Part shown: in pieces, positions 7,132 to 27,663 of the stretch
Layout of the letters: each line of letters opens with the position of its first letter
Numbering within the stretch: the first letter of the stretch is position 1
Translations under genes and position numbers: made by a program
Assembly: GCA_035644495.1 (NCBI GenBank)
Contig: DASQOM010000120.1
Span: forward strand, 966 to 64,965
Length of the DNA stretch: 64,000 bases
Source: Planctomycetota bacterium
GTDB lineage: Bacteria > Planctomycetota > MHYJ01 > JACPRB01
Direction of reading: 5' to 3'
The notes under the pieces: generated by a model
What the model was told of the DNA's origin: nothing
The model's database searches: none
Seen by the model: only the letters and a program-made list of their open reading frames with translations

Positions 7132-8199
7132 CTACTTTTGAAAGATCGGAAGGTACTCGCACGGCATCTGGAGGATGACGCAGGCCATCGCCGTCGCATA
7201 CGTCGCGCCCACGTCGTCCAGCCACGAGCCGTCCGCCCTCTGATTGCGCAGAATCTCGTCGCGGACCGGAGGATAGTAATTCGCCCAGTGCTCGCCCCCC
7301 GCGAGGTACATCGCCTGGGAGGCGTAATAGTGCCCGTAGTAGTAGTGAAGCTTGTTGGGCACGAGGGAATGCTTGTAGTCCGGGAGCACCCGCAGCCCTT
7401 CGCGCACCTCCCGCGAGTCGTACATGCCCGCGCTGTACATCGCGACCACCCCGCAGGCCGTTAGCGCGAAGGACACCCGGGTGTCGTTCATGCCGTTGTC
7501 GTACGTCGCCGCCTGGTAGCTGAAGCCCCGCCGCGGCACCGCGCAGCGGATGATATAGCGCATCGCGCGCTGGATGGTGTCGAGGGGCACCGCGAGCCCC
7601 GCGTTCCGGGCGGCCCGGAGGGCCTGCACGGTCGACACGGTCACGGACAGGTCCGCGTCCACCGGAATCGGCTGATAGCGCCAGCCGCCCTCCCGGTTCT
7701 GGCTGTTCACGATCAGGTCCACCGCGCGCTTCAGCTTCGGCTTGATGTCCGCCTGACGGGTCATCCCGTAGATCTCGGCCAGGAACAGCGTCCCGAACGC
7801 GTGGCTGTACATCCTGGATCCGGCGTGCGTGACGTAACCGTCCTCGTCGCGGACCTTCGACAGCAGCCAGGCGACGCCGAGGGCGACGTTCTTGCCGTAC
7901 TTGCCCCGGCCCGGCACGTTTCCGGCCGAGACGAGGGCCATGCAGGAGATGGCCGTCACGTCGACCGATTCGTTCTCCTCGCCGAAGTACTCCTCATAAA
8001 GCTTGTATCCGACGCGGTTGGTCCAGGAGCCGTTGGCGTTCTGGCGGGAGGCGATCCAGGACAGGGCACGATCGACGGCTTCGCGGGCGTTCGGATTGAA
8101 TTCGCCGCGGGCGACCTCTCCGGGCCGGTCCTGCTGCGCGCCCGACGGAAGCGCCAGGACGGCGAGGACGCCCGTCGCGACCAGGAGGGCTTTCTTCAC
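7132..8199 (-). CDS. Secreted prenyltransferase/squalene-oxidase-repeat (terpene-cyclase-fold) protein
   Basis: Signal peptide plus repeated aromatic/Gly repeats (NANGSWTN, DEDGYVTH, NREGGWRYQ, ADGSWLDD). GTG start in a GTGA overlap with the upstream gene. Confidence 0.65.
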   Translation of the reverse strand: MKKALLVATGVLAVLALPSGAQQDRPGEVARGEFNPNAREAVDRALSWIASRQNANGSWTNRVGYKLYEEYFGEENESVDVTAISCMALVSAGNVPGRGKYGKNVALGVAWLLSKVRDEDGYVTHAGSRMYSHAFGTLFLAEIYGMTRQADIKPKLKRAVDLIVNSQNREGGWRYQPIPVDADLSVTVSTVQALRAARNAGLAVPLDTIQRAMRYIIRCAVPRRGFSYQAATYDNGMNDTRVSFALTACGVVAMYSAGMYDSREVREGLRVLPDYKHSLVPNKLHYYYGHYYASQAMYLAGGEHWANYYPPVRDEILRNQRADGSWLDDVGATYATAMACVILQMPCEYLPIFQK

Positions 8200-12407: not shown

Positions 12408-12408
12408 T

Positions 12409-14958: not shown

Positions 14959-17225
14959 TGCTTCCCCCTTCCGAAGAGGCACGCGAGGGCGGACTCGAGC
15001 AGGAGGAAGCCGACGAGGAAGTACATCAGGTATTTCCAGAGGCCGCTCGCCGGCGGCGGCGAGACGTCGATCTCCTGCTCCCCGTCGCGCTTCTCCCCGC
15101 GGAACTCGATCTTGAAGTCGGGGAAGCGCGACTGGATCTCCTCCTTCGTGATGCGCTCGAGGTTGCCCTCGACCGCCTGGATCTCCTCCGAAGTGGGCTC
15201 GCGCGGGCCGACGTTGACCGCAAAGTACGCGAGCAGCTTCTCCTCCTCTTTCGCGGAGTTCCGCGTCAGGCGGTACTTGCCCGCATTCCGCACGCCGTCG
15301 TTCTTGAACGCCTTGGGGTCGTCCGACTTCGTGCGCGAGGGATAGAAGAGGCGGAAGAACTTCTGGTCCTTCTCCGGCGTGCTGGCCGGGAGCGTCACCG
15401 ACCCCTCCGTCGGCGTTTCGAGGATGAAGGGCGGCTGGTACAGCTCCACCGGAAGGTCGAGATTGACGAGGTCGCCGACGAACAGGTTCCGCCGAGCCGA
15501 GGGCCGGGACGACAGGTAGCGGCAGAGGTCCCACATGAGCGGCAGGTACGGCGGATGGGCCTGGATGCCGGCGTTCCATTCATGGTCGATGGTCGACGTC
15601 AGGAGGATCACCTTGCCCTCCTCGAGCGGCTTCTCGAGGAAGAGCGGCGAATTGAAGTTGTCGTCCAGCGAGGCCAGGACTTTGTCGGGATCGTAGTCCT
15701 TGACCTTGTAGTACTTGTAGAAGACGAGGTCGTAGAGGGCCGCCATCGTCCGCTTCTGGAAGGTGCGGAACATCGGGTGGCCCAGGGCGAACTTGGCGAT
15801 GCGCCGCTCGGTGCCCCGCTCGATGCCGCCGCCGGGCGCCTCGCCGACGATGTCCTCCAGCTGCGCCGGCGAAAGCCCTGCGCCCTTCTTCCAGAAGAAC
15901 TCGTTGAACGAGACCTTGTCGACCTTGGCGCCCATCGTCAGGAACAGCCCGCCGCCCCGCTTGACGAAGTTCTCCACCTTTTCGACGCGGTCGGAGGTCA
16001 GGCTCTGGACGTTCGCCAGCACCAGGAAGTCGTAGCCGTCGAGGCCCTCCGCGTTGAAGAGCTCGACCGTCTTCACGTCCACCGAGAAGAAGATGCCCTG
16101 CCGGCCCGGGTCCAGCGCGAGCACGAACGCGAACGTCTCGCTGTCCTTCGGGTTGTCCTTGGGCTCGCCGTCGATCACCAGCGCCCGCAGCGAGCTCTTG
16201 ACGTCGACCGACAGCCAGCGGGAATCGTCGACGTCGAGGTAGTCCGGATCGATGGAGACGCGGACCACGTGGGGCGCGGCCTCGGCGAAGTCGTACTCAA
16301 AGGCCACCTGCGTCGTCGCGTTGGGCGGCAGCACGGTGGGCTCGGTTTTGACGAGCGAGTCGTTCACGTAGAATCCGACGTTCACCGCGGGGCGGGGGAT
16401 CGACGAAAAGTTGTGAATGGAGGCGGTGAAGCGGGTGGTCCGCTTGGTGGTGATGACGCGGTCGTTGGCGCGGAGGTCGACGATCGCATGGTTGAAGGCG
16501 TCGGAGGTGCCCGCGTCGTAGAGGAAGAAGCGGGTGTTGTCCTTCTTCGAGAGGGCCTTCAGGAGCTCGGCGAACTTCTTCGCCTCCTGGTCGTCGCGAA
16601 GCACCCAGCCGCCGCGCTGCAGGTCGGTGAAGATATAGATGCGGCGGTCGCGGTTGCGGATCTCGGCCGACTCGAGAAGGTTGCGCAGGGACTGCATGGT
16701 CGCGTAGACGCTCGTGCCGAAGTCGGAGGGCCGCAGTTCGTTGATCGCGGTCTGGATCCGCTCTTTGCGGTTGCTGTTGACGAGGATCGGCTCCGGATAC
16801 GAGCTGAGGGGCAGGATCGAGAAGCGGTCCTGCTCGCTCGGCCGGATGTCCTGGAGCACCTTGAGCGCGGCGCGCTTGGCGACGTCCAGCGTCATGTGCT
16901 GCGCGCGCTTGTAGGCCATGCTGTAGGACTGGTCGATGACGAAGAAGTGGTGGGTGTCGGTGTCGCCGAGCGCCTCGACGGGCGCCTCGCGGAAGAAGGG
17001 CCGCGCGATGGCGAGCGAGAGAAGGATCATGATGAGGATGCGCACGAGCAGGAGGAGGAGGTTCTCCATCTGCATGCGCTTGCGGGTCTTCTGAAGGGCG
17101 CGGAGCAGGAACTCCATCGCGGCCCAGCGCATCCGCTTGAACTTCTGGCGGTGCAGCAGATGGATAATGACCGGGATCGCGCCTCCCAGCGCGAACCAGA
17201 GCAGGGCGGGATTGAAGAAACCCAT
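14955..17225 (-). CDS. BatA-N-terminal-domain / vWA-domain membrane protein
   Basis: The N-terminus MGFFNPALLWFALGGAIPVIIHLLHRQK is the aerotolerance-regulator (BatA) N-terminal motif. MIDAS FFVIDQSYSM. GATase1-like DFLVLANV...GGGLFLTMG. Confidence 0.8.
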   Translation of the reverse strand: MGFFNPALLWFALGGAIPVIIHLLHRQKFKRMRWAAMEFLLRALQKTRKRMQMENLLLLLVRILIMILLSLAIARPFFREAPVEALGDTDTHHFFVIDQSYSMAYKRAQHMTLDVAKRAALKVLQDIRPSEQDRFSILPLSSYPEPILVNSNRKERIQTAINELRPSDFGTSVYATMQSLRNLLESAEIRNRDRRIYIFTDLQRGGWVLRDDQEAKKFAELLKALSKKDNTRFFLYDAGTSDAFNHAIVDLRANDRVITTKRTTRFTASIHNFSSIPRPAVNVGFYVNDSLVKTEPTVLPPNATTQVAFEYDFAEAAPHVVRVSIDPDYLDVDDSRWLSVDVKSSLRALVIDGEPKDNPKDSETFAFVLALDPGRQGIFFSVDVKTVELFNAEGLDGYDFLVLANVQSLTSDRVEKVENFVKRGGGLFLTMGAKVDKVSFNEFFWKKGAGLSPAQLEDIVGEAPGGGIERGTERRIAKFALGHPMFRTFQKRTMAALYDLVFYKYYKVKDYDPDKVLASLDDNFNSPLFLEKPLEEGKVILLTSTIDHEWNAGIQAHPPYLPLMWDLCRYLSSRPSARRNLFVGDLVNLDLPVELYQPPFILETPTEGSVTLPASTPEKDQKFFRLFYPSRTKSDDPKAFKNDGVRNAGKYRLTRNSAKEEEKLLAYFAVNVGPREPTSEEIQAVEGNLERITKEEIQSRFPDFKIEFRGEKRDGEQEIDVSPPPASGLWKYLMYFLVGFLLLESALACLFGRGKQ

Positions 17226-17255
17226 CTCAGCAGGTGGATCCCAAGACCCGGACGC

Positions 17256-17336
17256 GGAGACACGGAGAAGACCCCCGTCCGTTCCGGTCGCACTTCCGGA
17301 GCAGCCTCTTCCCGGTGTCCCTGGTGTCTTTGTGTT
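17256..17336. repeat. Structured intergenic spacer carrying one copy of the AACACAAAGACAC motif
   Basis: There is an imperfect inverted repeat: GGAGACACGGAGAAGACC (17256-17273) versus GCCTCTTCCCGGTGTCCC (17304-17321). An inner stem pairs TCCGG (17283-17287) with CCGGA (17296-17300). The 13-mer sits at 17324-17336 (minus sense), 5 nt after the TAA of the DUF58 gene. Confidence 0.6.
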
Positions 17337-17341
17337 TCATC

Positions 17342-18250
17342 TTAAGTCAGCTTGCCCCGGATCGAGAGACGGCCGGCGAGGTACTTCGTCAGCTCGACGT
17401 CGAGGTCCTGGTCGGTCGAGATGCGGACGTAGTCGACCATCTGCTTCACGCAGCCCTTGCGGATCTCCTCGCAGAACTGGTTGACCTCGGCCAGGTAGGC
17501 CTTCCGCAGCGAGCGCGGGTCGACGAGCTGCTTGGGATACTCTTCGAGCCCCTCGAAAAGCGTCATCCGCTCGAAGGGGAAGGTCAGCTCGTATTCGTCG
17601 AGGACGTGGAAGACGATCACGTCGTGCCGCTTGTGGCTGAAATGCTGCAGGCTCTTGAGGATGACCTCGGGCCTGTCGAAGAGGTCCGAGATCAGGATGA
17701 TCAGGCCGCGACGCTGGATGCGCTCGGCGAGCGCATTGAGCACGGCCCCCAGGTCGGTCTTGTTCTTCCCCTCGGCCTGCGCGAGCGTGCCCAGGATCGG
17801 CCGCAGGTGCCCCATCGAGCTCGACGTGGGGATGAACGTCTTCACCTCCTTGTCGAAGCAGACCATGCCCACGGAATCCTGCTGTTTCAGGATCAGGTAG
17901 GCCATCGACGCGGCGATGTGGCTCGCCAGCTCGAGCTTGGTGGTCTCCCTGCCGCCGTAGTCCATGGACTCCGAGGTGTCGAGCAGGATGTGCGAGCGCA
18001 GGTTGGTCTCGAGCTCGTACTCCTTGATGAAGAGGCGGTCGCTGCGGCCGAAGACCTTCCAGTCGAGGTGCTTGAGGTCGTCGCCCGGGGCGTACTCGCG
18101 GTGCTCGGCGAACTCCACCGAGAACCCGTGGTAGGGGCTCTTGTGCATGCCCCCCATGAAGCCCTCGACGATGTGGCGCGCCTTCAGATCCAGGCGCGTG
18201 ATCTTGTTGAGGACCTTGGAGTCGAGAAACTTATGCGTGGCGTCGGCCAT
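17342..18250 (-). CDS. DUF58-domain protein (MoxR-associated)
   Basis: HGFSVEFAEHREYAPGDDLKHLDWKVFGRSDRLFIKEYE is the DUF58 hallmark. The gene is directly downstream of MoxR. Confidence 0.85.
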   Translation of the reverse strand: MADATHKFLDSKVLNKITRLDLKARHIVEGFMGGMHKSPYHGFSVEFAEHREYAPGDDLKHLDWKVFGRSDRLFIKEYELETNLRSHILLDTSESMDYGGRETTKLELASHIAASMAYLILKQQDSVGMVCFDKEVKTFIPTSSSMGHLRPILGTLAQAEGKNKTDLGAVLNALAERIQRRGLIILISDLFDRPEVILKSLQHFSHKRHDVIVFHVLDEYELTFPFERMTLFEGLEEYPKQLVDPRSLRKAYLAEVNQFCEEIRKGCVKQMVDYVRISTDQDLDVELTKYLAGRLSIRGKLT

Positions 18251-18289
18251 AAGGAAATCCCCTCACGGGCACCGAGGACGACGGACCCT

Positions 18290-19384
18290 CTAAGCCCCGG
18301 TGACTTTGGGAAGCGCCTGGTCCTTCTCGAGCGAAGCCTCCTTCGCGGGGATGACCTCGAGGAGCTTGTCCACGATCTTGTCCGGCGTCACCCCTTCGGC
18401 CTCGGCCGTGAAGTTCGTGACGATGCGGTGCCTCAGCACCGGGTGGGCGATCGCCCGGATGTCCTGAATCGTGACGTAGTAGCGCCCCTGCAGCACCGCA
18501 TGCGCCTTGGCGCCGATGATCAAGTACTGGCTCGCGCGCGGTCCGGCGCCCCAGTGCACCCACTCCTTCACGAAGTCGGGCACGCCGCCCTCGGAGACGC
18601 GCGTCGCCCGCGACAGCGCCATCGCGTAGCGGATGACGTGATCGGCCACCGGCACCCGGCGGACCAGGTCCTGCAGCCGGAGGATCTCGTCGCCCGACAG
18701 CACCGTCGAGAGCTTGTGCTCGAAGACGGAGGTCGTGAGCTTCATGATCTCGAGCTCTTCCTGTTCCGTCGGGTAGCCGACCCGGATCATGTACATGAAG
18801 CGGTCGAGCTGCGCCTCGGGCAGGGGATACGTGCCTTCCTGTTCGATCGGGTTCTGGGTGGCCAGGACGAAGAAGGGGTGCTGGAGGGCGTGGCGCTTGC
18901 CGCCGACCGTCACCTGCAGCTCCTGCATCGCCTCGAGCAGCGCCGCCTGCGTCTTCGGCGGAGTCCGGTTGATCTCGTCCGCCAGGAGCACATTGGCGAA
19001 GATCGGCCCCTTGATGAAACGCAGCGCGCGGTCGCCCGAGGCCTTGTCGACGTCGATCACCTCGGTGCCGGTGATATCGCTGGGCATCAGGTCGGGCGTG
19101 AACTGGACCCGGCTGAAGGAGAGCGAGAGGGTCTGGGCGAGCGTCCGGATCATGAGGGTCTTGGCGAGGCCCGGGACGCCGACCAGGAGCGCGTGGCCCT
19201 TCGAGAAGATGCAGGTCAGGAGCTCGTCCAGGACGCGTTCCTGGCCGACGATCACCCGGTGCATCTCCGCCTTCAGGGTATCGTAGGCGGCTTTCAGCTT
19301 CTGGATGGATTCCATGTCTCCGCGGGAGCCGTCGGGAGTCGAACCGGGGGCCAGAGGGTCCATGCGCGCCTCCATCAAAGCCAA
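18290..19384 (-). CDS. MoxR-family AAA+ ATPase
   Basis: [13 protein letters not shown], Walker [32 protein letters not shown]. The start may be an internal Met such as MESIQK. Confidence 0.9.
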
Positions 19385-19424
19385 AAACCGAAGGTACCAG
19401 AAATACTACGGCTCACCAATAGAA

Positions 19425-21163: not shown

Positions 21164-21942
21164 CCGATCTGTTCTTCATCGGCGGCCCCTGCGTCATCGA
21201 GTCCGAAGCCCACGCCCTCCGCCACGCGAACGCCATCGCCGAGATCTGCCGCGCCGCCGGCGTCGACTTCGTCTACAAGAGCTCCTACGACAAGGCCAAC
21301 CGCACCTCGGGCAAGACCTACCGCGGACCGGGCCTCAAGGACGGCCTCGCGATCCTCGCCAAGGTGAAGAAGCAGACCGGACTGCGCTTGCTCACCGACG
21401 TCCACTCGCCCGAGGAGGCGAAGGCCGCGGCGAAAGTCGTCGACGTCCTCCAGATCCCCGCCATGCTCTGCCGCCAGACCGACCTGGTGGTGGCCGCGGC
21501 GAAGACGAAGCGGACCGTGAACATCAAGAAGGGCCAGTTCATGGATCCCTGGTCGATGCGCAACATCCTGGAGAAGGCGACGTCGACGGGGAACAAGGAC
21601 GTGATGCTCTGCGAGCGCGGCGCGACCTTCGGCTACCAGAACCTGGTCGTCGACATGCGCGCGATTCCGATCATGAAGTCGTTCGGCTGCAAGGTGGTGA
21701 TGGATGCGGGCCACGCGGTGCAGCAGCCGGGCGGGCTGGGCAACGCGTCGGGCGGCATGCGCGACATGATCCCGGTGATCGCGCGCTGCGGCGTCGCCGC
21801 CGGCGCCGATGGCCTCTTCATCGAGGTGCACGAGAACCCCGACAAGGGTCCGAGCGACGGCCCCAACATGCTGAAGCTCGCCGACCTCCCCGCCCTGCTG
21901 CGCGACGTGGTGGCGATCCGAAAGGCCGTCACGCCAGCTTGA
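21160..21942 (+). CDS. kdsA: 3-deoxy-8-phosphooctulonate synthase
   Basis: The ATG at 21160 is in an ATGA overlap with the ribBA stop. FFIGGPCVIES, YKSSYDKANRTS, NIKKGQF, DAGHAVQQPGG, ADGLFIEVH. Confidence 0.9.
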   Translation: MTDLFFIGGPCVIESEAHALRHANAIAEICRAAGVDFVYKSSYDKANRTSGKTYRGPGLKDGLAILAKVKKQTGLRLLTDVHSPEEAKAAAKVVDVLQIPAMLCRQTDLVVAAAKTKRTVNIKKGQFMDPWSMRNILEKATSTGNKDVMLCERGATFGYQNLVVDMRAIPIMKSFGCKVVMDAGHAVQQPGGLGNASGGMRDMIPVIARCGVAAGADGLFIEVHENPDKGPSDGPNMLKLADLPALLRDVVAIRKAVTPA

Positions 21943-22318
21943 GGCCCGCGTGCTTCGCCATCGGCTCGAAGTGGCGCCTGTCGCAAGTCCGCAAGGGAAG
22001 CCCGTTCTCCAGGCAAACCGCTTCGATCGTCGTGTCGAAGGAACTGACCTTCACCCCTTTCCGCCTCAGCTGCCGATAGAGCTGGGCGACCCGGAGACAG
22101 GTCCCGCGCGTCGCCTCCCGGTAGCGGAACTGCGCGAGATTCTGCCGCTCCCGCCGGAAGTCGTCATCCTCCCGGATCCCCTGCAGGACCTCCTGGAGGA
22201 TCGCCCCGCAGAGCCGCACCCGGTTGACCCGATGCAGGGCCTCCCGCAGAAGGGTTGACTCCCGGCCCCATCGGGCGGCGAGGAATTCAATCCAGACAGA
22301 GGTGTCCACGACGAACAC
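21929..22318 (-). CDS. vapC: PIN-domain toxin VapC
   Basis: (M/V)FVVDTSVWIEFL N-terminal acidic motif. Size about 129 aa. Preceded by a small antitoxin-like ORF. Confidence 0.8.
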   Translation of the reverse strand: MFVVDTSVWIEFLAARWGRESTLLREALHRVNRVRLCGAILQEVLQGIREDDDFRRERQNLAQFRYREATRGTCLRVAQLYRQLRRKGVKVSSFDTTIEAVCLENGLPLRTCDRRHFEPMAKHAGLKLA

Positions 22319-22490
22319 GGCCCCTCATCTCGTCCAGGTTCCCCTCCCCCACGACCTTGCCCGCGGACTTCAGGATCTCCCGCTGCTGCAGATGCTCGAC
22401 GAGGATCGCCGGCCCCCCGTTCACAAGGGCGACCTTGCGCTTCTCGCCGCTCCATTTCATGGCGCGCTTGAGGAGCTTCTCGGGAATCAC
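22287..22490 (-). CDS. Putative antitoxin (Phd/YefM-like?) paired with VapC; start ambiguous (GTG 22490, ATG 22460 or GTG 22535)
   Basis: Small ORF ending 32 nt inside vapC. GTG 22490 forms a GTGA overlap with the upstream stop. The segment KVALVNGGPAILVEHLQQREIL resembles the Phd/YefM beta-strand core. Confidence 0.45.
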   Translation of the reverse strand: MIPEKLLKRAMKWSGEKRKVALVNGGPAILVEHLQQREILKSAGKVVGEGNLDEMRGRVRRGHLCLD

Positions 22491-22894
22491 TCCTTCAGGA
22501 TCACCGAGATTCCGCCGCGACCGGGTGCGGAGCACGTGAAGCGGACGCGCACCGGCGCGGGGCCGTCGACCCAGACTTCGCGCGGGCCGAGGATCGTCAC
22601 GCCCTCGCGGTCCGGAACGACTTCCAGTCGATGCAGACCCGTCGCCTCGGGGAGGCAGACCTCCGCCTCCACGACTTCGCCCACGGAGGCCAGCTCCCGC
22701 GCGAAGCGCACGGAGATGCGGACGTCCGCGGTCGGGTCGAAGGCCTCGAAGACCAGCTCCTTCCCGCCGGGGGCGGACGCTTCGGACAACCGCCACGCGA
22801 GGGGGGGATGTCCTGGCGGCGTCGGAAGGGAGGGCCGCCCCGCGCAGGACATCCCCCCGGCGAAGAGAAGAAGGGAAAGGAGGGACTGCTTCAT
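22487..22894 (-). CDS. Small lipoprotein or secreted protein, unknown function
   Basis: The start at ATG 22894 is in an ATGA overlap with the upstream stop. Signal peptide MKQSLLSLLLFAGGMSCAG. The remainder is beta-rich. Confidence 0.6.
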   Translation of the reverse strand: MKQSLLSLLLFAGGMSCAGRPSLPTPPGHPPLAWRLSEASAPGGKELVFEAFDPTADVRISVRFARELASVGEVVEAEVCLPEATGLHRLEVVPDREGVTILGPREVWVDGPAPVRVRFTCSAPGRGGISVILKE

Positions 22895-23148
22895 CCGTGA
22901 CGGGGATCGTCGGGATCGGGATCCCGGTCCTCCTCGAAGCGCTCGAAGTCGATCTGCGCGCAGAGCGGACAGGGACAGCGCAGGATCGCATCGAGCGGCC
23001 CCGACTCGATGATCGTGATGCCCGGAACGACCTGGGGGAAGTCGTGCCCCGTCAGGGCATGGGCGCGGCAGATCTCGCACTTCTCGTCCGGCTCCCCCAT
23101 CAGGATATGGAAGAGCGAGGGATCCCCGGGAATTCTCGGCCCTTTCAT
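22891..23148 (-). CDS. Small Cys-rich (putative zinc-binding) protein, 85 aa
   Basis: ATG 23148 is preceded by GAAAGGAG and lies in an ATGA overlap with the upstream stop. CEIC...CPCPLC motifs, an acidic C-terminus and no signal peptide. Confidence 0.55.
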   Translation of the reverse strand: MKGPRIPGDPSLFHILMGEPDEKCEICRAHALTGHDFPQVVPGITIIESGPLDAILRCPCPLCAQIDFERFEEDRDPDPDDPRHG

Positions 23149-24287
23149 TTCGGGCTCCTTTCGTCCCTCTTCACCTCGCAGCCCCACGGTTTGAGCTGCT
23201 CGGCGGCGGCCTTCCGCGCTTCCTCCTCCCGGCGGGGGGCGAGACGCTGACGCGCCTTCTCCGCCACCTCCGCCGCGGCCGCCGTCTGCGCCTCGCCGAT
23301 CGCGGCGTTCACCCGCCGCTCCGCTTCAAAAGTCTCGGTGAGACGCGTGATCTCGTTCCTCAGCTGCTGGCGCCGCCGTTCCAGCTCGCGCCGGACCTCC
23401 GGCGTGGCGAGCAGCTCCCCGGATTCCAGCGAGCGCTCCGCCGACTGCGCCTCCCCGACCACCTCGGCCAGCGCCTGCGCCGCCGACACGCTCCTCACCG
23501 CCGCCTCCCGGCGAGACGCCTCCATGGCCGAGATCCGTCCCAGCTCTTCGCGGGAGACGGGGCCCAGTTTGTCGATCGGCGCCTTCCAGGGATCCTTGAG
23601 CGCGTCGTTCCAGAGCGCCGCCTTCTCCTTGCGGCGGACCTCATACTGCTCCATCACCGCCGTATTGCGAGCTTCGGCCCGGAGCGTCCCCGCCCCGATC
23701 TTCAGCGGCGGCACCAGCGTCTCGGGAATCCCCAGGTCGCGGTTCAGATCGATCTCCCGCACCGGCTTCCCGTCCAGGCCCCGGAGCTCCGAGGTCCGGC
23801 GGCAGGCTTTCTGCGCCTCGTCCAGCGCCATCCCCTGCTTCGCCTTGGCATCGAGACACTCCTTGATGGCCCGGGCCTGCGACTCGCGCTGGACGCCGTC
23901 GAGCGCCCGTTCCAGCGAACGGCAGCCGTCCAGCTCCTGCCCCAGCATCGTGTTGGCCGAGATGCGGTAGTGCTTGATCGCGTCGCACACGGTCGGCGAC
24001 GCGTAGCAGGCGAGCACCAGGGCCGACCCGGCCAGTTCCGACTGCACGGCCGACAGCGCCCCACCCAGAAACTCCTCCTTCAGGTTCTTGGTGAAGAGGC
24101 TGCGGAAGCTGGCCTTGAGATCGAAGCTTCCGCACCCCAGGTCCGGCGCCGCGTCCAGCTGGATCGACGCCCGCTGAGGCTTCACGTCCTTCAGCTCCAC
24201 GCCCGGAGGCAGACGCCGCCGCAGCTCCCGATCCCGCTCGATCAGGTCCTGGCCCAGGAGCAGCCCGAGGAACAGCAGGCTAGTCAT
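23145..24287 (-). CDS. TraH-like (F-type/ICE PFL_4711-like) periplasmic protein with a long coiled-coil C-terminal half
   Basis: LGCGSFDLKASFRSLF...ALVLACYASPTVCDAIKHY...LDGCRSLE parallels the conserved GCGGID..SFSF......P......C block of TraH. The rest is an Ala/Glu/Arg-rich coiled coil. The CDS itself is well supported. The family call is from memory. Confidence 0.55.
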   Translation of the reverse strand: MTSLLFLGLLLGQDLIERDRELRRRLPPGVELKDVKPQRASIQLDAAPDLGCGSFDLKASFRSLFTKNLKEEFLGGALSAVQSELAGSALVLACYASPTVCDAIKHYRISANTMLGQELDGCRSLERALDGVQRESQARAIKECLDAKAKQGMALDEAQKACRRTSELRGLDGKPVREIDLNRDLGIPETLVPPLKIGAGTLRAEARNTAVMEQYEVRRKEKAALWNDALKDPWKAPIDKLGPVSREELGRISAMEASRREAAVRSVSAAQALAEVVGEAQSAERSLESGELLATPEVRRELERRRQQLRNEITRLTETFEAERRVNAAIGEAQTAAAAEVAEKARQRLAPRREEEARKAAAEQLKPWGCEVKRDERSPK

Positions 24288-24768
24288 GCGGCAGCTCCTT
24301 CATCAGCGCTTCGCGCGGCGTGAAGCCGCGCAGCACTTTCCCCCCGGCGACCAGTGTGGGCGTCATCGTCACGCCATACTGCGACCAGAGCGGGGATCCG
24401 GCCGGAACGCGGACGACGGGGAGTCCCTGCAGCTCCTGATCCTGCCGGGCGCACCAGGGGCAACCCTCGCGCGAGAAGTAGAGCAGCGGCGCCTCGGCCT
24501 TCCTCCCCTGCTCCGCCTCCACCGCCGCAATGGCCGCCCGCAGTCGTCGGAACCGCTCCTCCTGCCAGGCCAGATACGAGCGCGCAGTCTCGGCGCTCGG
24601 AGCGTCCAGCAGCCGCTTCACCGCCGGCGGCGCCGCCGAGTCCGCCCAGAGATCCGCCGCCGCGGGCTCCGACGCCTTCCGCCGGCTGTTCCAGAAGTCC
24701 ACGTCCCGCCGCTCGAAGAACCGGCTGTCGTCCCCGACGAGCGCCCATAAGGCGATCAGCGCGCGCAT
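24280..24768 (-). CDS. TraF/TrbB-like thioredoxin-fold protein with a CPWC active site
   Basis: FWNSRR...AETARSYLAWQEERF resembles the TraF N-terminal region. LLYFSREGCPWCARQ...TMTPTLV is a thioredoxin fold with CxxC. It overlaps both neighbours. Confidence 0.5.
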   Translation of the reverse strand: MRALIALWALVGDDSRFFERRDVDFWNSRRKASEPAAADLWADSAAPPAVKRLLDAPSAETARSYLAWQEERFRRLRAAIAAVEAEQGRKAEAPLLYFSREGCPWCARQDQELQGLPVVRVPAGSPLWSQYGVTMTPTLVAGGKVLRGFTPREALMKELPHD

Positions 24769-25121
24769 TTCATCAGCTCCTTCACGTCGACCTTCGTCCC
24801 CGTCGCGACGTGGACCCGGTCCCCGCGCACGACGGCGACCGCCGGCAACCGCCGGATGCCGAGCTTCCTCGCCATCCGGAGGCCGTCCTCGTCGAACGGG
24901 CGGACGTCGCCGGCGGCCTGCACCGTGGCAAGGAACGCCTCCGAGGGCTCGCGGTCGCCGAAGTACCGCTCGACGAGCAGCACCGCCCGCACCTTCTCCC
25001 CCTTGACCTGCTCGAAAATCCGGGACGCATCCGGAGAGTCCGGCGAGAAGAAGATCCAGATCGTCGGAGCGTCCTGAGAGGAAGCCAGCCCGGCGACGAG
25101 CAAGGCAGCGAGCAGTTTCAT
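24756..25121 (-). CDS. Secreted Cys-less thioredoxin-like protein (DUF1525/PFL_4709-like?)
   Basis: Signal peptide MKLLAALLVAGLASS. IWIFFSPDSPDASRIF occupies the place of a CxxC. The C-terminal GIRRLPAVAVVRGDRVHVATG resembles DUF1525. Confidence 0.45.
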   Translation of the reverse strand: MKLLAALLVAGLASSQDAPTIWIFFSPDSPDASRIFEQVKGEKVRAVLLVERYFGDREPSEAFLATVQAAGDVRPFDEDGLRMARKLGIRRLPAVAVVRGDRVHVATGTKVDVKELMKCAR

Positions 25122-25151
25122 AAAGACCCGTTCAACCCAAAGCCACGAAGG

Positions 25152-25409
25152 TCACCCAGAACACGAAGTTCCATTCACGACGCGGCGGATGCCCCGCTGC
25201 AGCACCGGGGTGCGGAAGTTCAAAAGAAGGCCAAGCCACTTTCCCGTGGGTCGGAGATAGGGTCACCTCGTGCACCAGGCACTCCTCGTAGATCGATTCG
25301 AAGAGTCCCGGTCCCAGCGCCCGGCGCACCGCATTGGCGGCTCCGATGATCCGGGGGGACACCGCCTTGATTTCTTCTTCGGTGTCCTTTGTGGCTTGTG
25401 TTCCATCAT
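25152..25409 (-). pseudogene. Decayed GxxExxY-family (PD-(D/E)XK-like) gene: frameshifted, with an internal deletion of roughly 60 codons
   Basis: One frame gives ...TKDTEEEIKAVSPRIIGAANAVRRALGPGLFESIYEECLVHE, the family N-terminus. A different frame gives TGKWLGLLLNFRTPVLQRGIRRVVNG*, the family C-terminus. The central beta-strand region is missing, and the ATGATG at 25404-25409 is out of frame with the N-terminal block. Confidence 0.7.
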
Positions 25410-25508: not shown

Positions 25509-25703
25509 ATGTGGAGCGTGAAAGACGGAAAGCTGTTCTGCAGACGCGATCCCGTCTCGGTGCGGCGCGTGGTGGTCCAGATGGTGATGGGGCGGGCCAC
25601 GGGGCCGGTGCCAGACGAAAAGGCCCGGCACATGCTCCGGATGGAGCGGGCGTTGTCGCTCCGGAGCCTCTCGCAATCGCTCCAGGAGGAGCGGACCGCA
25701 TGA
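25509..25703 (+). CDS. Small hypothetical protein (64 aa)
   Basis: GGAGGA lies 8 nt upstream of ATG 25509. GC3 is very high. The stop is in an ATGA overlap with the next ORF. Confidence 0.4.
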   Translation: MWSVKDGKLFCRRDPVSVRRVVVQMVMGRATGPVPDEKARHMLRMERALSLRSLSQSLQEERTA

Positions 25704-25885
25704 GCCAGATGGAGCCGGTCTTCTGCCACTTCCCCGAGACGCTGCGGCTGGTGCAGGTGGTCCGGCTCCTCGACGAGTGCCTCCGGCAGCCGCCCGCGGA
25801 GGATGCGCGGGAGCGAATCCGGGGCCAAGTGCGTGACTTGATCGATCGCGGGCGCGAGATCGCCCGGGAGAATTTCGTGACGTAG
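25700..25885 (+). CDS. Small hypothetical protein (61 aa)
   Basis: ATGA-coupled to the previous ORF, with very high GC3. Helical sequence MSQMEPVFCHFPETLRLVQVVRLLDECL... Confidence 0.4.
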   Translation: MSQMEPVFCHFPETLRLVQVVRLLDECLRQPPAEDARERIRGQVRDLIDRGREIARENFVT

Positions 25886-25952
25886 ACCCCGGCCGGCGCA
25901 GGCGGCCCGGGCCTGCACCCCTCGCGCGAGGGTGCAGGTCAGGGAGGTGCCG

Positions 25953-26129
25953 ATGGCGCCGGACGGAGGGCCGCGCTCCGGACGATACCGGGACCGGTTC
26001 GTGCGGGAGACGGCCCGAAGGATCTACTTCCTCCTCGCCCTGTCGTCCCGGTTCGCCGAGCCGGCGCGGCTGATGGAGGAGCTGCGGCGGAGGCTCTGCC
26101 GATGCCGCGGCCGGGCCGAGGGGCGCTGA
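25953..26129 (+). CDS. Small hypothetical protein (58 aa)
   Basis: GGGAGG lies 5 nt upstream of ATG 25953. High GC3. Arg-rich. Confidence 0.35.
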   Translation: MAPDGGPRSGRYRDRFVRETARRIYFLLALSSRFAEPARLMEELRRRLCRCRGRAEGR

Positions 26130-26157
26130 CCCCCGGCCCGTTCTTTGAGATTGTTGC

Positions 26158-26185
26158 GCGAAGCTCTTTCTTGAAGCTTCGCTTT
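26158..26185 (+). terminator. Possible intrinsic terminator hairpin
   Basis: GCGAAGCT (26158-26165), a 9-nt loop, then AGCTTCGC (26175-26182), followed by TTTG. It lies 29 nt after the stop at 26129. The U-tract is short. Confidence 0.35.
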
Positions 26186-26284
26186 GCCGCCAGGACGGCG
26201 CCCCTCCTTGTGGAGCGGTGTCGGGGCACTTTGACTCCGGCATCGCTCCTGGTCAGCGATGCTGTTCCATGGGAGGGACTGACG

Positions 26285-26383
26285 ATGGATGGCTTTCAGA
26301 GCTTCCTCGATCAGGTCCTGCAGACGGTGATCCTGGCCCTGCCGAGCTTGCTCGACTGGGTCATCACCCGGCTGAAGGGCTAG
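26285..26383 (+). CDS. Candidate 32-aa amphipathic or hydrophobic peptide
   Basis: GGGAGGG lies 7 nt upstream of ATG 26285. Sequence MDGFQSFLDQVLQTVILALPSLLDWVITRLKG. It is preceded by the hairpin at 26240-26262 and lies 68 nt upstream of the kinase gene. Confidence 0.35.
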   Translation: MDGFQSFLDQVLQTVILALPSLLDWVITRLKG

Positions 26384-26451
26384 CGCCGACGGCGGCGTCA
26401 GGGCCGGCCACGGGGGGGATCCCCCGTGGCCCGGTCCCCCTGAGGGGCCCT

Positions 26452-27663
26452 ATGGACTTTGGACGCTACGAGATCCTGGAAGAACGGGCGCGCGGCGCCT
26501 GCGGCATCGTCTATCAGGCGCGCGACCGCGAGCTCGACCGCATCGTCGCCCTCAAGGCGCTGCGACAGGACGACTCCGGCCCGCTTTCCCGCGAGCGCTT
26601 CCTCCGCGAGGCGCGGCTGGCCGCGTCCCTCGACCACCCGAACATCGTCAAGATCCTCGAGACCGGGGAACACGAGGGCCGGCTCTTCTACACGATGCCG
26701 CTGCTCGAGGGCGAGCTCCTGCGGGGGCCGCTGCCGCCCGCCGAAGCCTGCCGCCTCCTCGAGCGCGTCGCCCGCGCCGCCGCGCACGCCCACTCCCGCG
26801 GGATCGTCCACCGCGACCTCAAGCCCTCCAACATCGTCGTCTGCTCGGGCGAGCCCGTCGTGACCGACTTCGGCGTGGCGCGCGGCCCCGGAGATCCGCG
26901 GTTGACCGAGACCGGCGAACTGCTCGGCACCCCCGCCTATATGGCGCCCGAACAGGCCCGGGGAGACTCGCGCGAAGCCGACGGACGGGCCGACGTCTAC
27001 TCCATCGGCGTCATGCTCCACGAGCTGCTCTCCGGCCGTCTCCCGCACAGCGCGCCGTCGTTCCTCGAGCTGTCGTCCAAGATCCTCAACGATCCCGCGC
27101 CCGACCTCGAAGGATTCGACCCCGCCCTGCGGAATCTCGTGCGCCGCTGCCTGGAGAAGAATCCGGCATCGCGGCCCGACGCCGTCGCGCTCGCCCGGAG
27201 CCTGGCCCGCTGGCTGCCGCGCCGGCCGTCGCGCTGGCCCGCGGCACTCCCGATACTCCTCGCCGCGGCCGCCGCCGCCCTGTGGGGCGCCGCGCCGTCC
27301 GACCGGCCGCCCCCCTCGATGATCCGGATCGGCGAGATCTGGATTGACCGCGAGGAGGCGCCGCCGCGCGCGGGAGGATATTCGTATCTCGACGCCGTCG
27401 CCTACTGTCTGCGCGCCGGCAAACGGCTGCCGACCGAGCCGGAGTGGGAGGCGGGGGCGGCTGAAGGCTGCCGGGATATGGCCGATCACCTGGCGGAGTG
27501 GACGGCGACCGAGGGACGCCCGGGGCGGGACACGCGGGTCGTGCGCGGCGGCCACTGGCTGAGCCCGCAGGACCGCCGGACGATCCGCGAGCGGCAGGAA
27601 CTGCCCGTCACGAAGCGGTCGCCGACGCTCGGCTTCCGCTGCGCCAGCGCGTCGCCGCCTTAG
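26452..27663 (+). CDS. Transmembrane Ser/Thr protein kinase with a short FGE-sulfatase (SUMF1)-like extracytoplasmic domain
   Basis: Kinase motifs GACGIVYQA, ALK, HRDLKPSNIV, DFGVAR and GTPAYMAPE. TM segment WPAALPILLAAAAAALWGAAP. The C-terminal YCLRAGKRLPTEPEWE...VVRGGHW...LGFRC is FGE-like. Confidence 0.85.
   Translation: MDFGRYEILEERARGACGIVYQARDRELDRIVALKALRQDDSGPLSRERFLREARLAASLDHPNIVKILETGEHEGRLFYTMPLLEGELLRGPLPPAEACRLLERVARAAAHAHSRGIVHRDLKPSNIVVCSGEPVVTDFGVARGPGDPRLTETGELLGTPAYMAPEQARGDSREADGRADVYSIGVMLHELLSGRLPHSAPSFLELSSKILNDPAPDLEGFDPALRNLVRRCLEKNPASRPDAVALARSLARWLPRRPSRWPAALPILLAAAAAALWGAAPSDRPPPSMIRIGEIWIDREEAPPRAGGYSYLDAVAYCLRAGKRLPTEPEWEAGAAEGCRDMADHLAEWTATEGRPGRDTRVVRGGHWLSPQDRRTIRERQELPVTKRSPTLGFRCASASPP

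What the first reader, a model, noticed from the sequence alone, without database searches (positions are those of the whole stretch)
21929..25121. Orphan TraH / TraF(TrbB) / DUF1525-like periplasmic module fused into one coupled operon with a Cys-rich protein, a lipoprotein and VapBC
Seven minus-strand genes are chained by overlaps of 13, 8, 4, 4, 4 and 32 nt, so they look like one translationally coupled unit.

The 380-aa protein has the GCG-x-FD...SF...C...C block that I associate with F-plasmid TraH and ICE PFL_4711-family proteins, followed by a long coiled coil. The 162-aa protein combines a TraF-like YL.WQ helix with a CPWC thioredoxin site. The 121-aa protein looks like a Cys-less thioredoxin fold (DUF1525-like).

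In known systems these proteins work only as accessory periplasmic parts of F-type or GI-type type IV secretion. Here no VirB4/TraC, coupling protein, relaxase, TraU/TraN/TraG/TraB or integrase lies within at least 20 kb on either side, and the composition matches the host.

Two readings are possible. It could be a deeply eroded conjugative-element remnant held in place by the coupled VapBC. Alternatively it could be a domesticated disulfide-handling envelope module of unknown function. TraH-like proteins outside a T4SS context are, to my knowledge, undescribed.
Basis: partly seen in the sequence, partly recalled or inferred. Interest (0 to 1): 0.7.

Follow-up and report, generated by a model that had tools for sequence, protein, structure and literature searches.

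The report
Chromosomal TraH-like envelope operon in Planctomycetota
A small operon related to helper proteins of bacterial DNA-transfer (conjugation) machines sits at one fixed chromosomal place, with no such machine nearby, across a whole lineage of uncultured Planctomycetota, so it looks like a captured mobile-element part that now does a job of its own.

Summary
The seven overlapping minus-strand genes are real (overlaps 13, 8, 4, 4, 4 and 32 nt).

Family calls:
- The 380-aa protein is a distant relative of TraH/TIGR03755. It is far below the curated cutoffs, but the match is consistent across homologues and holds transitively.
- The 162-aa protein has a thioredoxin fold with an invariant CxxC and weak TraF similarity.
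- The DUF1525 call for the 121-aa protein is not supported, and its fold is unproven.
- The 85-aa "Cys-rich" protein looks like a zinc ribbon without a signal peptide. It occurs only in this clade.
- The lipoprotein belongs to the ancestral module.
- VapBC is real but dispensable, because close relatives lack it.

About 60 related loci keep p121-p162-p380-(p85)-p135 next to the same membrane Ser/Thr kinase among housekeeping genes. A sister clade at about 40% identity does too. dN/dS is about 0.2-0.3. No T4SS gene was found among the window ORFs I scanned.

A paralogous four-gene module lies on ICE-like islands, two of them in MAGs that also carry the chromosomal copy. Two islands have a coupling protein and a TraI_2 relaxase nearby.

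Verdict: an old, selected chromosomal derivative of a conjugative-element module, not a decaying remnant. Its function is unknown. Use in trans with a T4SS elsewhere in the genome is not excluded.

The parts
24756..25121 (-). p121: small exported protein with a Sec-type signal peptide. It has no CxxC (SPDS lies where a thioredoxin would have it) and a conserved LPA(V/Y)A motif. First gene of the operon.
   Evidence: ORF and start. Orthologues are in every related locus, and paralogues (30% identity, E 3e-12) sit at the same position in the mobile-element module. There is no DUF1525/TIGR03757 hit. Thioredoxin_2 hits are weak (E 0.025-0.089). The AlphaFold2 single-sequence model has pLDDT 49.
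24280..24768 (-). p162: exported thioredoxin-fold protein with an invariant CxxC (CPWC here), a cis-Pro TPT motif, and an N-terminal FFERRxVDFW...YLAWQEER region. It resembles TraF/TrbB.
   Evidence: Alignment A4 shows invariant C103, C106 and P137. Thioredoxin_2 hits 21 of 37 members and Pfam TraF 8 of 37, best E 8e-6. PDB thioredoxin, glutaredoxin and DsbC hits have E 1e-3 to 1e-2. The mobile-element paralogue hits TIGR02740 TraF-like at E 0.0017 over model positions 97-202.
23145..24287 (-). p380: Cys-rich TraH/TIGR03755-like protein. It has a very short N-terminal hydrophobic segment, the conserved block CGSFD...CYASPTVCD...C...C...C, a long C-terminal helical hairpin, and a C-terminal PWGCE motif.
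22891..23148 (-). p85: small protein without a signal peptide that carries two zinc-knuckle-like motifs (DCP[IV]C[RK]AHG ... CPCP[LM]C). It is probably a cytoplasmic zinc ribbon and is specific to this clade.
   Evidence: Orthologues in L001 and L005-L008 share the motifs, and the copy in L003 has lost the second one. The p85 profile finds it only in the p380 clade, not in sister-clade loci L018-L029 or in mobile-element modules. dN/dS is about 0.28-0.39 against close relatives. No family hit.
22487..22894 (-). p135: lipoprotein with a conserved lipobox ...[AG]C and a C-terminal domain of about 100 aa that is also present in the lipoprotein of the mobile-element module.
   Evidence: Lipobox and domain conservation. 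Similarity to the L011 216-aa lipoprotein has E 0.003. The family profile hits all loci, including the sister clade. No known family.
22287..22490 (-). VapB-type antitoxin (67 aa). It is an accessory neighbour, not part of the conserved core.
   Evidence: Pfam VapB_antitoxin E 0.11 here. The L001 orthologue is recorded with PF09957. Present or absent in different relatives.
21929..22318 (-). VapC PIN-domain toxin (129 aa). Accessory. Its 3' end overlaps the convergent kdsA gene.
   Evidence: NF047959 scores 101.9 bits against a cutoff of 80, and PIN has E 3.8e-12.
26452..27663 (+). Membrane Ser/Thr kinase with a C-terminal FGE-sulfatase-like domain, transcribed divergently from the operon. It is the only neighbour kept in both clades and may be a regulator.
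   Evidence: Pfam Pkinase plus FGE-sulfatase. It lies next to the module in essentially every locus long enough to show it, including sister-clade loci where RibBA-KdsA have moved to the other side.
25509..26383 (+). Four small conserved ORFs (64, 61, 58 and 32 aa) in the divergent region between the operon and the kinase. Function unknown.
   Evidence: Called in L012 and in relatives. Nucleotide identity to relatives is 72-77%. No Pfam or Rfam match.
25132..25362 (-). Truncated GxxExxY (PDDEXK_3) gene fragment just upstream of p121.
   Evidence: ORF translation. Intact PDDEXK_3 genes lie at this position in L001 and L017. tblastn matches.

Best explanation
This is an old chromosomal operon, inherited vertically in an uncultured Planctomycetota lineage and kept by selection. 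It descends from a four-gene periplasmic module (small exported protein, TraF/TrbB-like CxxC thioredoxin, TraH-like Cys-rich coiled-coil protein, lipoprotein). That module also exists on ICE-like islands in the same phylum, and it is a deep relative of the TraH/TraF accessory proteins of F-type and GI-type type IV secretion systems.

Proposed mechanism (inferred, not shown):
- p121, p162, p380 and p135 are exported.
- p162 docks on p380 through its N-terminal region and uses its CxxC to form or shuffle the disulfides of p380's six or seven conserved cysteines.
- p380 oligomerises through its C-terminal helical hairpin.
- The lipoprotein p135 tethers the assembly to the outer membrane.
- The complex now acts as a stand-alone envelope structure, not as part of an adjacent conjugation machine. 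The divergently encoded membrane Ser/Thr kinase may control it.

p85 is a later, clade-specific addition and is probably cytoplasmic. VapBC is a dispensable neighbour.

Shown: homology, gene order, synteny, purifying selection, and no T4SS genes found nearby. Inferred: export, the redox partnership, membrane anchoring, and independence from any T4SS elsewhere in the genome.
For: Homology:
- TIGR03755 hits in 40 of 47 p380 homologues.
- The family profile retrieves 206 proteins. Of 112 full-length ones, 67 match TIGR03755 and 24 match Pfam TraH.
- A profile of those proteins finds F TraH at E 4e-6.
- p162 has an invariant CxxC and cis-Pro, with thioredoxin and TraF hits.

Chromosomal and vertical inheritance:
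- The same gene order occurs between the kinase and kdsA/ribBA in L001, L003, L005-L010, L012 and L017, and in 51 metagenome loci.
- A sister clade keeps p121-p162-TraH-like-p135 next to the kinase, although ribBA-kdsA changed sides. Its TraH-like protein is about 40% identical to that of the p380 clade.
- At least 108 clusters of ~380-aa homologues were found, at 51-84% identity.

Selection: dN/dS is 0.18-0.30 for p380, 0.21-0.44 for p121, p162 and p135, and 0.28-0.39 for p85 against close relatives. kdsA and ribBA give 0.05-0.25.

No T4SS genes were found in the window or in the flanks of relatives.

Origin:
- A paralogous module in the same order lies on islands with transposases, DUF736 and defence cargo. 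A coupling protein plus TraI_2 relaxase is present in two of them.
- In the neighbour-joining bootstrap, the Planctomycetota 'QDL' types are monophyletic against classical TIGR03755 at 98%. The chromosomal clade has 100% support and the grouping of all short-N-terminus forms 67%.

F-plasmid precedent: TraF binds TraH through its N-terminal domain, TrbB isomerises disulfides, TraH has a C-terminal coiled coil, and TraF and TraH are outer-membrane associated (PMC7555446). The ICEclc TIGR03755 protein is essential for transfer and lies beside thioredoxin-like genes (PMC10018362).
Against: - Only 64 kb of this genome and +/-10 kb of the relatives were seen. Planctomycetota often scatter functionally linked genes (my own knowledge, not tested here), so a T4SS elsewhere is not excluded.
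- Two MAGs carry both the chromosomal module and a mobile-element copy (L008/L011 and L001/L013).
- p380 has only 12 residues before the conserved QDL motif, and some relatives have 5-10. Mobile-element paralogues have 20-29-residue signal peptides, so export of p380 is uncertain.
- No structure-based support exists. The N-terminal half of the p380 model has pLDDT of about 50, and neither Foldseek nor a PDB sequence search finds anything.
- Matches to TraH, TraF and TIGR03755 are far below the curated cutoffs.
- No expression or interaction data exist.
Confidence: 0.55

Rival explanations
1. The operon still serves conjugation or another T4SS-type machine whose remaining genes lie elsewhere in the chromosome or on resident ICEs. 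In that case it is a dispersed or host-encoded accessory set for pilus or channel assembly.
For: All characterised TraH/TIGR03755 proteins work within MPF-F or MPF-G T4SS (PMC4027160, PMC10018362, PMC7555446). Two MAGs with the chromosomal module also hold ICE-like contigs, one of them with a coupling protein and relaxase. Even on those islands the module is not next to a VirB4 gene (none within 10 kb in six loci). Distance from channel genes therefore seems normal for this family here.
Against: The ICE-like islands carry their own copy of all four proteins, so a chromosomal spare is not obviously needed. Chromosomal-type clusters outnumber mobile-element-type clusters at least 108 to 26 in the same database, although MAG binning biases this count. 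The fixed position, the conserved kinase neighbour and divergence that roughly tracks the flanking housekeeping genes fit a host function.
Confidence: 0.27
2. The operon acts against conjugation. Chromosomal copies of mobile-element mating proteins would interfere with, or exclude, incoming related ICEs.
For: It is a chromosomal paralogue of an ICE module in genomes that are exposed to such ICEs. A toxin-antitoxin pair often lies beside it.
Against: Known exclusion systems use other proteins, namely TraS/TraT/Eex acting on TraG (my own knowledge). The genes evolve under steady purifying selection and show no sign of diversification. Identity to the mobile-element paralogues is only 30-38%, which is low for dominant-negative interference.
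Confidence: 0.08
3. It is a decaying fragment of an integrated conjugative element, kept in place by VapBC addiction.
For: Its relatives are conjugation proteins. VapBC is translationally coupled to the cluster in this window. A PDDEXK_3 pseudogene lies upstream.
Against: All five core reading frames are intact, and p380 homologues keep a near-constant length of about 380 aa. dN/dS is about 0.2-0.4. The locus is identical in about 60 contigs and in a sister clade. VapBC is absent in many relatives that keep the core, including two with 78% and 83% identical p380. No integrase, att-like tRNA or compositional break was found.
Confidence: 0.03
4. The resemblance to TraH/TraF is convergent or due to chance, and this is an unrelated Cys-rich protein with a generic Dsb-like partner.
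For: The window protein scores only 22 bits against TIGR03755 (cutoff 270) and has no direct Pfam TraH hit. hhalign against the single F TraH sequence gives 2% probability.
Against: The hits are consistent across 40 of 47 homologues, always over the same region. Profile search gives a continuous chain of intermediates up to proteins scoring E 3e-97 on TIGR03755, and the chain reaches F TraH at E 4e-6. The partner gene order (thioredoxin-like gene directly upstream) matches as well.
Confidence: 0.04

Closest known systems
TIGR03755 / PFL_4711 family (Tfc22 of ICEHin1056-type, orf55476 of ICEclc), the MPF-G homologue of TraH
   Same: It shares the N-terminal Cys-containing block (CGxFD, C..SPT.C, three more Cys), a mostly helical C-terminal half and a similar length class. 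A thioredoxin-like gene lies directly upstream. Profile matches are consistent.
   Different: The score is far below the family cutoff (22 versus 270 bits). p380 is shorter (380 versus about 420-465 aa) and has a minimal N-terminal hydrophobic segment. It is not flanked by TraU, TraG_N or VirB4 as in ICEclc (PMC10018362). It is chromosomal, syntenic and vertically inherited.
F-plasmid TraH with TraF and TrbB (MPF-F pilus-assembly and outer-membrane complex proteins)
   Same: TraH is a Cys-rich exported protein with a C-terminal coiled coil. It is paired with thioredoxin-fold proteins, one with CxxC (TrbB) and one without (TraF). F TraH is reached transitively at E 4e-6. The biology is summarised in PMC7555446 and PMC11315126.
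   Different: In this window a single protein (p162) combines a TraF-like N-terminal region with a TrbB-like CxxC. No TraU, TraW, TrbC, TrbI, TraN or TraG partners are present. Direct similarity to F TraF and TrbB is not significant. No T4SS context was found.
Planctomycetota ICE-like island module (L011, L013-L016): 164-184 aa, 214-265 aa, 438-478 aa and ~170-217 aa proteins followed by DUF736
   Same: The four proteins occur in the same order with the same overlapping-gene style. Pairwise identities to the window proteins are 30%, 38% and 32%, plus a shared C-terminal domain in the lipoprotein.
   Different: The island versions have long canonical signal peptides and extra insertions. They lack p85 and the kinase neighbour. 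They sit among transposases, defence genes and small ICE-backbone genes. L011 and L014 have a coupling protein plus a TraI_2 relaxase 5-7 kb downstream of the module.
VapBC type II toxin-antitoxin
   Same: The VapC PIN toxin scores above the NCBIfam cutoff. A small antitoxin gene lies upstream and overlaps it.
   Different: Nothing unusual in the pair itself. Here it is coupled to the 3' end of the operon by a 4-nt overlap, but many relatives lack it.

Membership tests
TraH / TIGR03755 (PF06122; MPF-F TraH, MPF-G Tfc22) | Profile score at or above the curated cutoff | tested here: not met
   TIGR03755 scores 22.3 bits against a cutoff of 270.45. There is no Pfam TraH hit for the window protein.
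TraH / TIGR03755 (PF06122; MPF-F TraH, MPF-G Tfc22) | Reproducible remote homology (superfamily level) | tested here: met
   Forty of 47 homologues hit TIGR03755, best E 3.4e-10. Of 112 profile-retrieved proteins, 67 hit TIGR03755 (best 3e-97) and 24 hit PF06122 (best 2e-11). Their joint profile hits F TraH at E 4e-6 with Z=1e5.
TraH / TIGR03755 (PF06122; MPF-F TraH, MPF-G Tfc22) | Conserved cysteine block in the N-terminal half | tested here: met
   C94, C101, C144 and C162 are invariant, and C52 and C122 are at least 90% conserved in A1. The same CGxFD...LLCYxSPTLCD...C...C...C consensus appears in A2.
TraH / TIGR03755 (PF06122; MPF-F TraH, MPF-G Tfc22) | C-terminal coiled coil or long helical region | tested here: met
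   The AlphaFold2 model has helices at 257-293 and 296-364, with block-mean pLDDT 73-92 over that span.
TraH / TIGR03755 (PF06122; MPF-F TraH, MPF-G Tfc22) | Cleavable signal peptide and periplasmic location | tested here: inconclusive
   Only 12 residues (MTSLLFLGLLLG) precede the invariant QDL motif, and an upstream in-frame stop rules out a longer N-terminus. Paralogues have AxA|QDL after 20-29 residues. No signal-peptide predictor was available.
TraH / TIGR03755 (PF06122; MPF-F TraH, MPF-G Tfc22) | Encoded inside a T4SS locus (VirB4/TraC, TraU, TraG_N and others nearby) | tested here: not met
   No such gene was found among the scanned window ORFs, nor within +/-10 kb in the loci that have Pfam tables. 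The other loci show the same housekeeping flanks.
TraF / TrbB thioredoxin-like T4SS proteins (PF13728, TIGR02740) | Thioredoxin fold with a cis-Pro loop | tested here: met
   Thioredoxin_2 hits 21 of 37 members and Thioredoxin_3 hits 8 of 37. PDB thioredoxin, glutaredoxin and DsbC hits are weak but uniform. P137 in the TPT motif is invariant. No structure was predicted.
TraF / TrbB thioredoxin-like T4SS proteins (PF13728, TIGR02740) | CxxC active site (TrbB type) | tested here: met
   C103 and C106 are invariant in 37 sequences, including the mobile-element paralogues.
TraF / TrbB thioredoxin-like T4SS proteins (PF13728, TIGR02740) | Profile score at or above the cutoff for PF13728 or TIGR02740 | tested here: not met
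   PF13728 scores 14.4 bits against a cutoff of 23 for the window protein. Eight of 37 relatives hit below threshold, best E 7.7e-6. TIGR02740 has E 0.0017 for a mobile-element paralogue. The A4 profile against F TraF and TrbB is not significant.
TraF / TrbB thioredoxin-like T4SS proteins (PF13728, TIGR02740) | N-terminal domain that binds TraH | not testable with these tools
   A conserved N-terminal FFERRxVDFW...YLAWQEER region exists. No complex prediction or binding assay was available.
DUF1525 / TIGR03757 (PFL_4709 family) | Profile match to PF07511 or TIGR03757 | tested here: not met
   None of the 12 p121-family members hits either model, even at E <= 1.
DUF1525 / TIGR03757 (PFL_4709 family) | Thioredoxin-like fold | tested here: inconclusive
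   Thioredoxin_2 gives only E 0.025-0.089 in 2 of 12 members. The top PDB hit is a thioredoxin at E 1.1. hhalign against the p162 family finds nothing. The single-sequence AlphaFold2 model has pLDDT 49.5 with a beta-alpha-beta...beta-beta-alpha order that is compatible but unreliable. Foldseek finds nothing.
VapBC type II toxin-antitoxin | PIN-domain VapC scoring above the cutoff | tested here: met
   NF047959 scores 101.9 bits against a cutoff of 80. PF01850 scores 47.3 against 23.6.
VapBC type II toxin-antitoxin | Small antitoxin gene directly upstream and overlapping the toxin | tested here: met
   A 67-aa ORF overlaps VapC by 32 nt. Its PF09957 hit is weak here (E 0.11), but the L001 orthologue has the hit on record.
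Integrated conjugative element (as remnant) | Integrase, relaxase, coupling protein or VirB4 nearby, with patchy or variable insertion sites | tested here: not met
   None of these genes was found. The position is the same in about 60 loci and in a sister clade. There is no tRNA and no compositional break.

The most novel reading that the evidence does not exclude
A lineage of Planctomycetota has turned the TraH/TraF-type periplasmic sub-assembly of a conjugative element into a T4SS-independent envelope complex. The complex would be stabilised by disulfides, tethered to the outer membrane and possibly controlled by the adjacent membrane Ser/Thr kinase. It would be part of the core genome of the lineage. 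To my knowledge this would be the first case of TraH-family proteins working outside type IV secretion.
Probability: 0.35. Interest if true: 0.75.

Novelty: new variant of a known kind. Interest (0 to 1): 0.6.

Why it matters
TraH-family proteins are among the least understood parts of F-type and GI-type conjugation machines. No structure was found in the PDB copy searched here. Comparative work found TraH homologues only in the MPF-F and MPF-G classes (PMC4027160).

This operon is a minimal four-protein version that is kept by selection without a visible secretion channel. It offers a simpler system for asking what TraH and its thioredoxin partner do on their own. It is also an example of a host capturing part of a mobile-element machine.

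In addition, it points to an undescribed family of ICE-like islands in Planctomycetota, a phylum for which my searches found no literature on conjugation.

Tried and rejected
- Foldseek of the p380 model against the PDB gave only generic helical bundles (best E 0.3). A PDB sequence search with the family profile found nothing.
The single-sequence model was too poor to use.
- hhalign of the family profiles against single F-plasmid TraF, TrbB and TraH sequences was not significant. A profile of intermediate relatives was needed to reach TraH.
- p135, p85, the island lipoproteins, the conserved island 153-aa and 79-aa proteins, and two of the small ORFs upstream of the kinase gave no Pfam or NCBIfam hits.
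- Rfam and tRNA scans of the whole window were empty, so the conserved upstream region is not a known RNA.
- The sigma-70 promoter scan found nothing, and terminator-like sites were at chance level.
- A scan of viral contigs for the island-type TraH-like protein found nothing.
- The first metagenome query was too divergent to yield search patterns.
- I could not extend the island contigs beyond +/-10 kb. Whether those islands encode a VirB4-type channel therefore remains open.
- Rejected: the idea that conserved unpaired cysteines in p121 and p135 form intermolecular disulfides. The p135 cysteine is not conserved.

Full report
**Observation**

Start and stop positions give overlaps of 13, 8, 4, 4, 4 and 32 nt. 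An independent gene call on an identical public contig (L012) gives the same products: 121, 162, 380, 85, 135, 67 and 129 aa. Third-position GC is 0.74-0.91, as in the window's other genes. GC of the region (0.69-0.70) does not stand out from the window.

**Setting**

The window is chromosomal and consists of housekeeping genes.
- Downstream and convergent are kdsA and ribBA, followed by a MoxR-DUF58-BatA-VWA cluster.
- Upstream and divergent is a membrane Ser/Thr kinase with an FGE-sulfatase-like domain, then LexA and a MacB-type ABC system.
- Twenty further large ORFs across the 64 kb are TopA, TruB, a TrpD-like transferase, MFS, CLC, sulfatase, NuoF, Fmt, a radical-SAM CofH/MqnC-like enzyme and others.
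- No VirB4, coupling protein, relaxase, TraU/N/G/B or integrase appeared among the ORFs scanned. There is no tRNA and no Rfam hit.

**The 380-aa protein (p380)**

The window protein hits only NCBIfam TIGR03755, the ICE PFL_4711 family. The hit has E 4.9e-5 and 22 bits against a cutoff of 270, with residues 36-174 aligned to model positions 23-164. There is no direct Pfam TraH hit.

A search of the large protein collection found 108 clusters at 51-84% identity. Most are about 380 aa long, all those with a name are 'hypothetical', and the named ones come from Planctomycetota MAGs. Their alignment shows invariant C94, C101, C144, C162 and C370, nearly invariant C52 and C122, and the invariant block LACYASPTVCDAIKHYR.

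Remote homology is well supported:
- Forty of 47 members hit TIGR03755, best E 3.4e-10.
- An hmmsearch with the family profile against 1.8 billion representatives found 206 proteins. Of 112 full-length ones, 67 match TIGR03755 (best 3e-97) and 24 match Pfam TraH (best 2e-11).
- A profile of those 112 proteins finds F-plasmid TraH at E 4e-6 and nothing else.

So p380 is a real but distant member of the TraH/TIGR03755 superfamily, not a member of either curated family.

AlphaFold2 with 47 sequences gives two long, confident C-terminal helices (257-293 and 296-364) and a poorly defined N-terminal half. Neither Foldseek nor a PDB sequence search finds a solved relative.

**The 162-aa protein (p162)**

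Thirty-seven relatives share an invariant CxxC, an invariant proline in a TPT motif (the thioredoxin cis-Pro position), and a conserved N-terminal FFERRxVDFW...YLAWQEER region.
- Thioredoxin_2 is hit by 21 of 37 members and Pfam TraF by 8 of 37 (best 7.7e-6), all below the gathering scores.
- PDB hits are uniformly thioredoxins, glutaredoxins and DsbC or DsbA.
- An island paralogue aligns to TIGR02740 'TraF-like' over model positions 97-202 at E 0.0017.

The thioredoxin fold and redox site are well supported. Membership of the TraF/TrbB family is only suggested.

**The 121-aa protein (p121)**

It has a good signal peptide and conserved FFSP and LPAxA motifs. No member hits DUF1525 or TIGR03757. 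hhalign against the p162 family finds nothing. The best PDB hit is a thioredoxin at E 1.1. The only structure prediction allowed (single sequence) was unreliable, with pLDDT 49.5. The DUF1525 call is not supported, and the thioredoxin-like fold remains a guess.

**The 85-aa protein (p85) and the 135-aa protein (p135)**

Orthologues of p85 share FHV..G...DCP[IV]C[RK]AHG and CPCP[LM]C and have no hydrophobic N-terminus. That pattern is typical of a small zinc ribbon, which would be cytoplasmic, not a disulfide-rich periplasmic protein. p85 is found only in the p380 clade and evolves under purifying selection (dN/dS about 0.3).

p135 has a conserved lipobox and a domain of about 100 aa that is shared with the island lipoprotein. 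Neither protein hits any family.

**VapBC**

VapC passes the NCBIfam cutoff, and VapB is a weak but plausible PF09957 relative. The pair lies at this spot in the window, L001, L005, L008, L009, L034, L039 and L054. It is absent in L003, L007, L017, in the locus of P0009 (83% identical p380) and in many others. It is an accessory neighbour.

**Distribution and synteny**

Every related locus keeps the order p121-p162-p380-(p85)-p135 with overlapping or abutting genes, next to the same kinase. These loci comprise six from species-representative genomes, several from exact-protein look-ups and 51 from a metagenome scan. None of the loci that carry Pfam tables shows a T4SS gene within 10 kb.

A sister clade (L018-L029) has a TraH-like protein about 40% identical to that of the p380 clade. 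It keeps p121-p162-TraH-like-p135 divergent from the kinase, even though ribBA-kdsA lie on the other side there. It lacks p85 and the 1-kb spacer.

Pairwise dN/dS against close relatives is 0.18-0.30 for p380 and 0.21-0.44 for p121, p162 and p135. kdsA and ribBA give 0.05-0.25. This is an old, functional, vertically inherited operon, not a remnant.

**Origin**

One distant p162 relative (P0220) led to contig L011, which belongs to the same MAG as chromosomal locus L008. L011 carries, in the same order:
- a 164-aa p121-like protein (30% identity, E 3e-12);
- a 214-aa p162-like protein (38%, E 3e-30);
- a 438-aa p380-like protein (32%, E 4e-46);
- a 216-aa lipoprotein that shares p135's C-terminal domain.

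These are followed by a DUF736 protein, transposases, a coupling protein and a TraI_2 relaxase.

Five more such islands were found (L013-L016 and one without DNA). L013 is in the same MAG as chromosomal locus L001. They share a backbone of small genes and carry cargo such as Hachiman, restriction-modification, DndB, RHS and amidoligase genes. None has a VirB4 gene within 10 kb.

Island proteins have 20-29-residue signal peptides ending just before the QDL motif. Chromosomal ones have only 5-13 residues there.

A neighbour-joining tree with 100 bootstraps gives:
- all Planctomycetota 'QDL' types against classical TIGR03755: 98%;
- the p380 clade: 100%;
- all short-N-terminus forms together: 67%.

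The long, island-type forms branch around them. The simplest reading is one old capture of an island module by the chromosome. That direction is inferred and only moderately supported.

**How it probably works**

The precedent is the F plasmid. There TraF binds TraH through its N-terminal domain, TrbB isomerises disulfides of the Cys-rich TraH, TraU and TraN, TraH carries a C-terminal coiled coil, and TraF and TraH fractionate with the outer membrane (PMC7555446, PMC11315126). In ICEclc the TIGR03755 protein is essential for transfer and lies near several thioredoxin-like genes (PMC10018362).

By analogy, I propose that p162 folds and docks p380, that p380 oligomerises through its helical hairpin, and that p135 anchors the complex to the outer membrane. 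p121 would be an additional periplasmic partner. What the complex does for the cell is unknown. The conserved divergent kinase suggests envelope-linked regulation. These steps are inference.

**Caveats**

- Only part of each genome was visible.
- Linked functions are often scattered in Planctomycetota genomes (my own knowledge).
- Two MAGs hold both module types, so use in trans with a T4SS elsewhere cannot be excluded.
- Export of p380 is uncertain.

**Novelty**

Comparative work found TraH homologues only in MPF-F and MPF-G systems (PMC4027160). My literature searches found no report of a TraH-family module outside a T4SS, nor of such islands in Planctomycetota.

I rate this a new variant of a known kind, with interest 0.6.

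Noticed in passing
window 25132-25362 (-): A truncated GxxExxY (PDDEXK_3) gene fragment lies directly upstream of the operon. Relatives have one or two intact copies at the same place (L001 7866-8234 and 8848 onward; L017 7298-7684 and 8722-9123). This suggests a locally multiplying or decaying small gene family.
   Followed up: partly
window 25509-26383 (+): Four small ORFs (64, 61, 58 and 32 aa) between the operon and the kinase are called in relatives too. The DNA is 72-77% identical across loci, as conserved as the coding genes. They match no Pfam or Rfam family. They are absent from the sister clade, where the kinase and p121 are directly divergent.
   Followed up: partly
window 26452-27663 (+): A membrane Ser/Thr kinase with a C-terminal FGE-sulfatase-like domain is the only neighbour of the module kept in both clades. 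It stays adjacent although ribBA-kdsA moved to its other side in the sister clade. This hints at a functional link.
   Followed up: partly
window 24252-24287 (N-terminus of p380); proteins P0222-P0269: Chromosomal-type TraH-like proteins have only 5-13 residues before the invariant QDL motif. Island-type paralogues have canonical signal peptides of 20-29 residues ending just before QDL. It is unclear how, or whether, the chromosomal proteins are exported.
   Followed up: partly
L011, L013, L014, L015, L016 (ICE-like islands): These appear to be an undescribed family of Planctomycetota islands. They share a backbone of small genes, a DUF736 protein and the TraH/TraF-like module. L011 and L014 have a TraG-D_C-type coupling protein plus a TraI_2 relaxase. 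Cargo includes Hachiman (HamA), a type I RM system, DndB, an RHS toxin and Amidoligase_2 with a GATase. No VirB4 gene lies within 10 kb.
   Followed up: partly
L001 8848-9540: The public gene call fuses a PDDEXK_3 ORF with the p121 orthologue into one 230-aa product. The two are in frame with no stop between them. This is probably a start-codon miscall and not a real fusion.
   Followed up: no
L069 (F plasmid) 25967-26592: The F plasmid carries a vapBC pair between traD and traI. VapBC next to tra-type genes therefore has a precedent, though it is probably coincidental here.
   Followed up: no
window 8196-19405 (-): A MoxR-DUF58-BatA-VWA cluster is followed by a 1441-aa protein with PQQ/BamB-like beta-propeller and TPR repeats. 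The MoxR-DUF58-BatA-VWA part is also present next to the operon in relatives.
   Followed up: no
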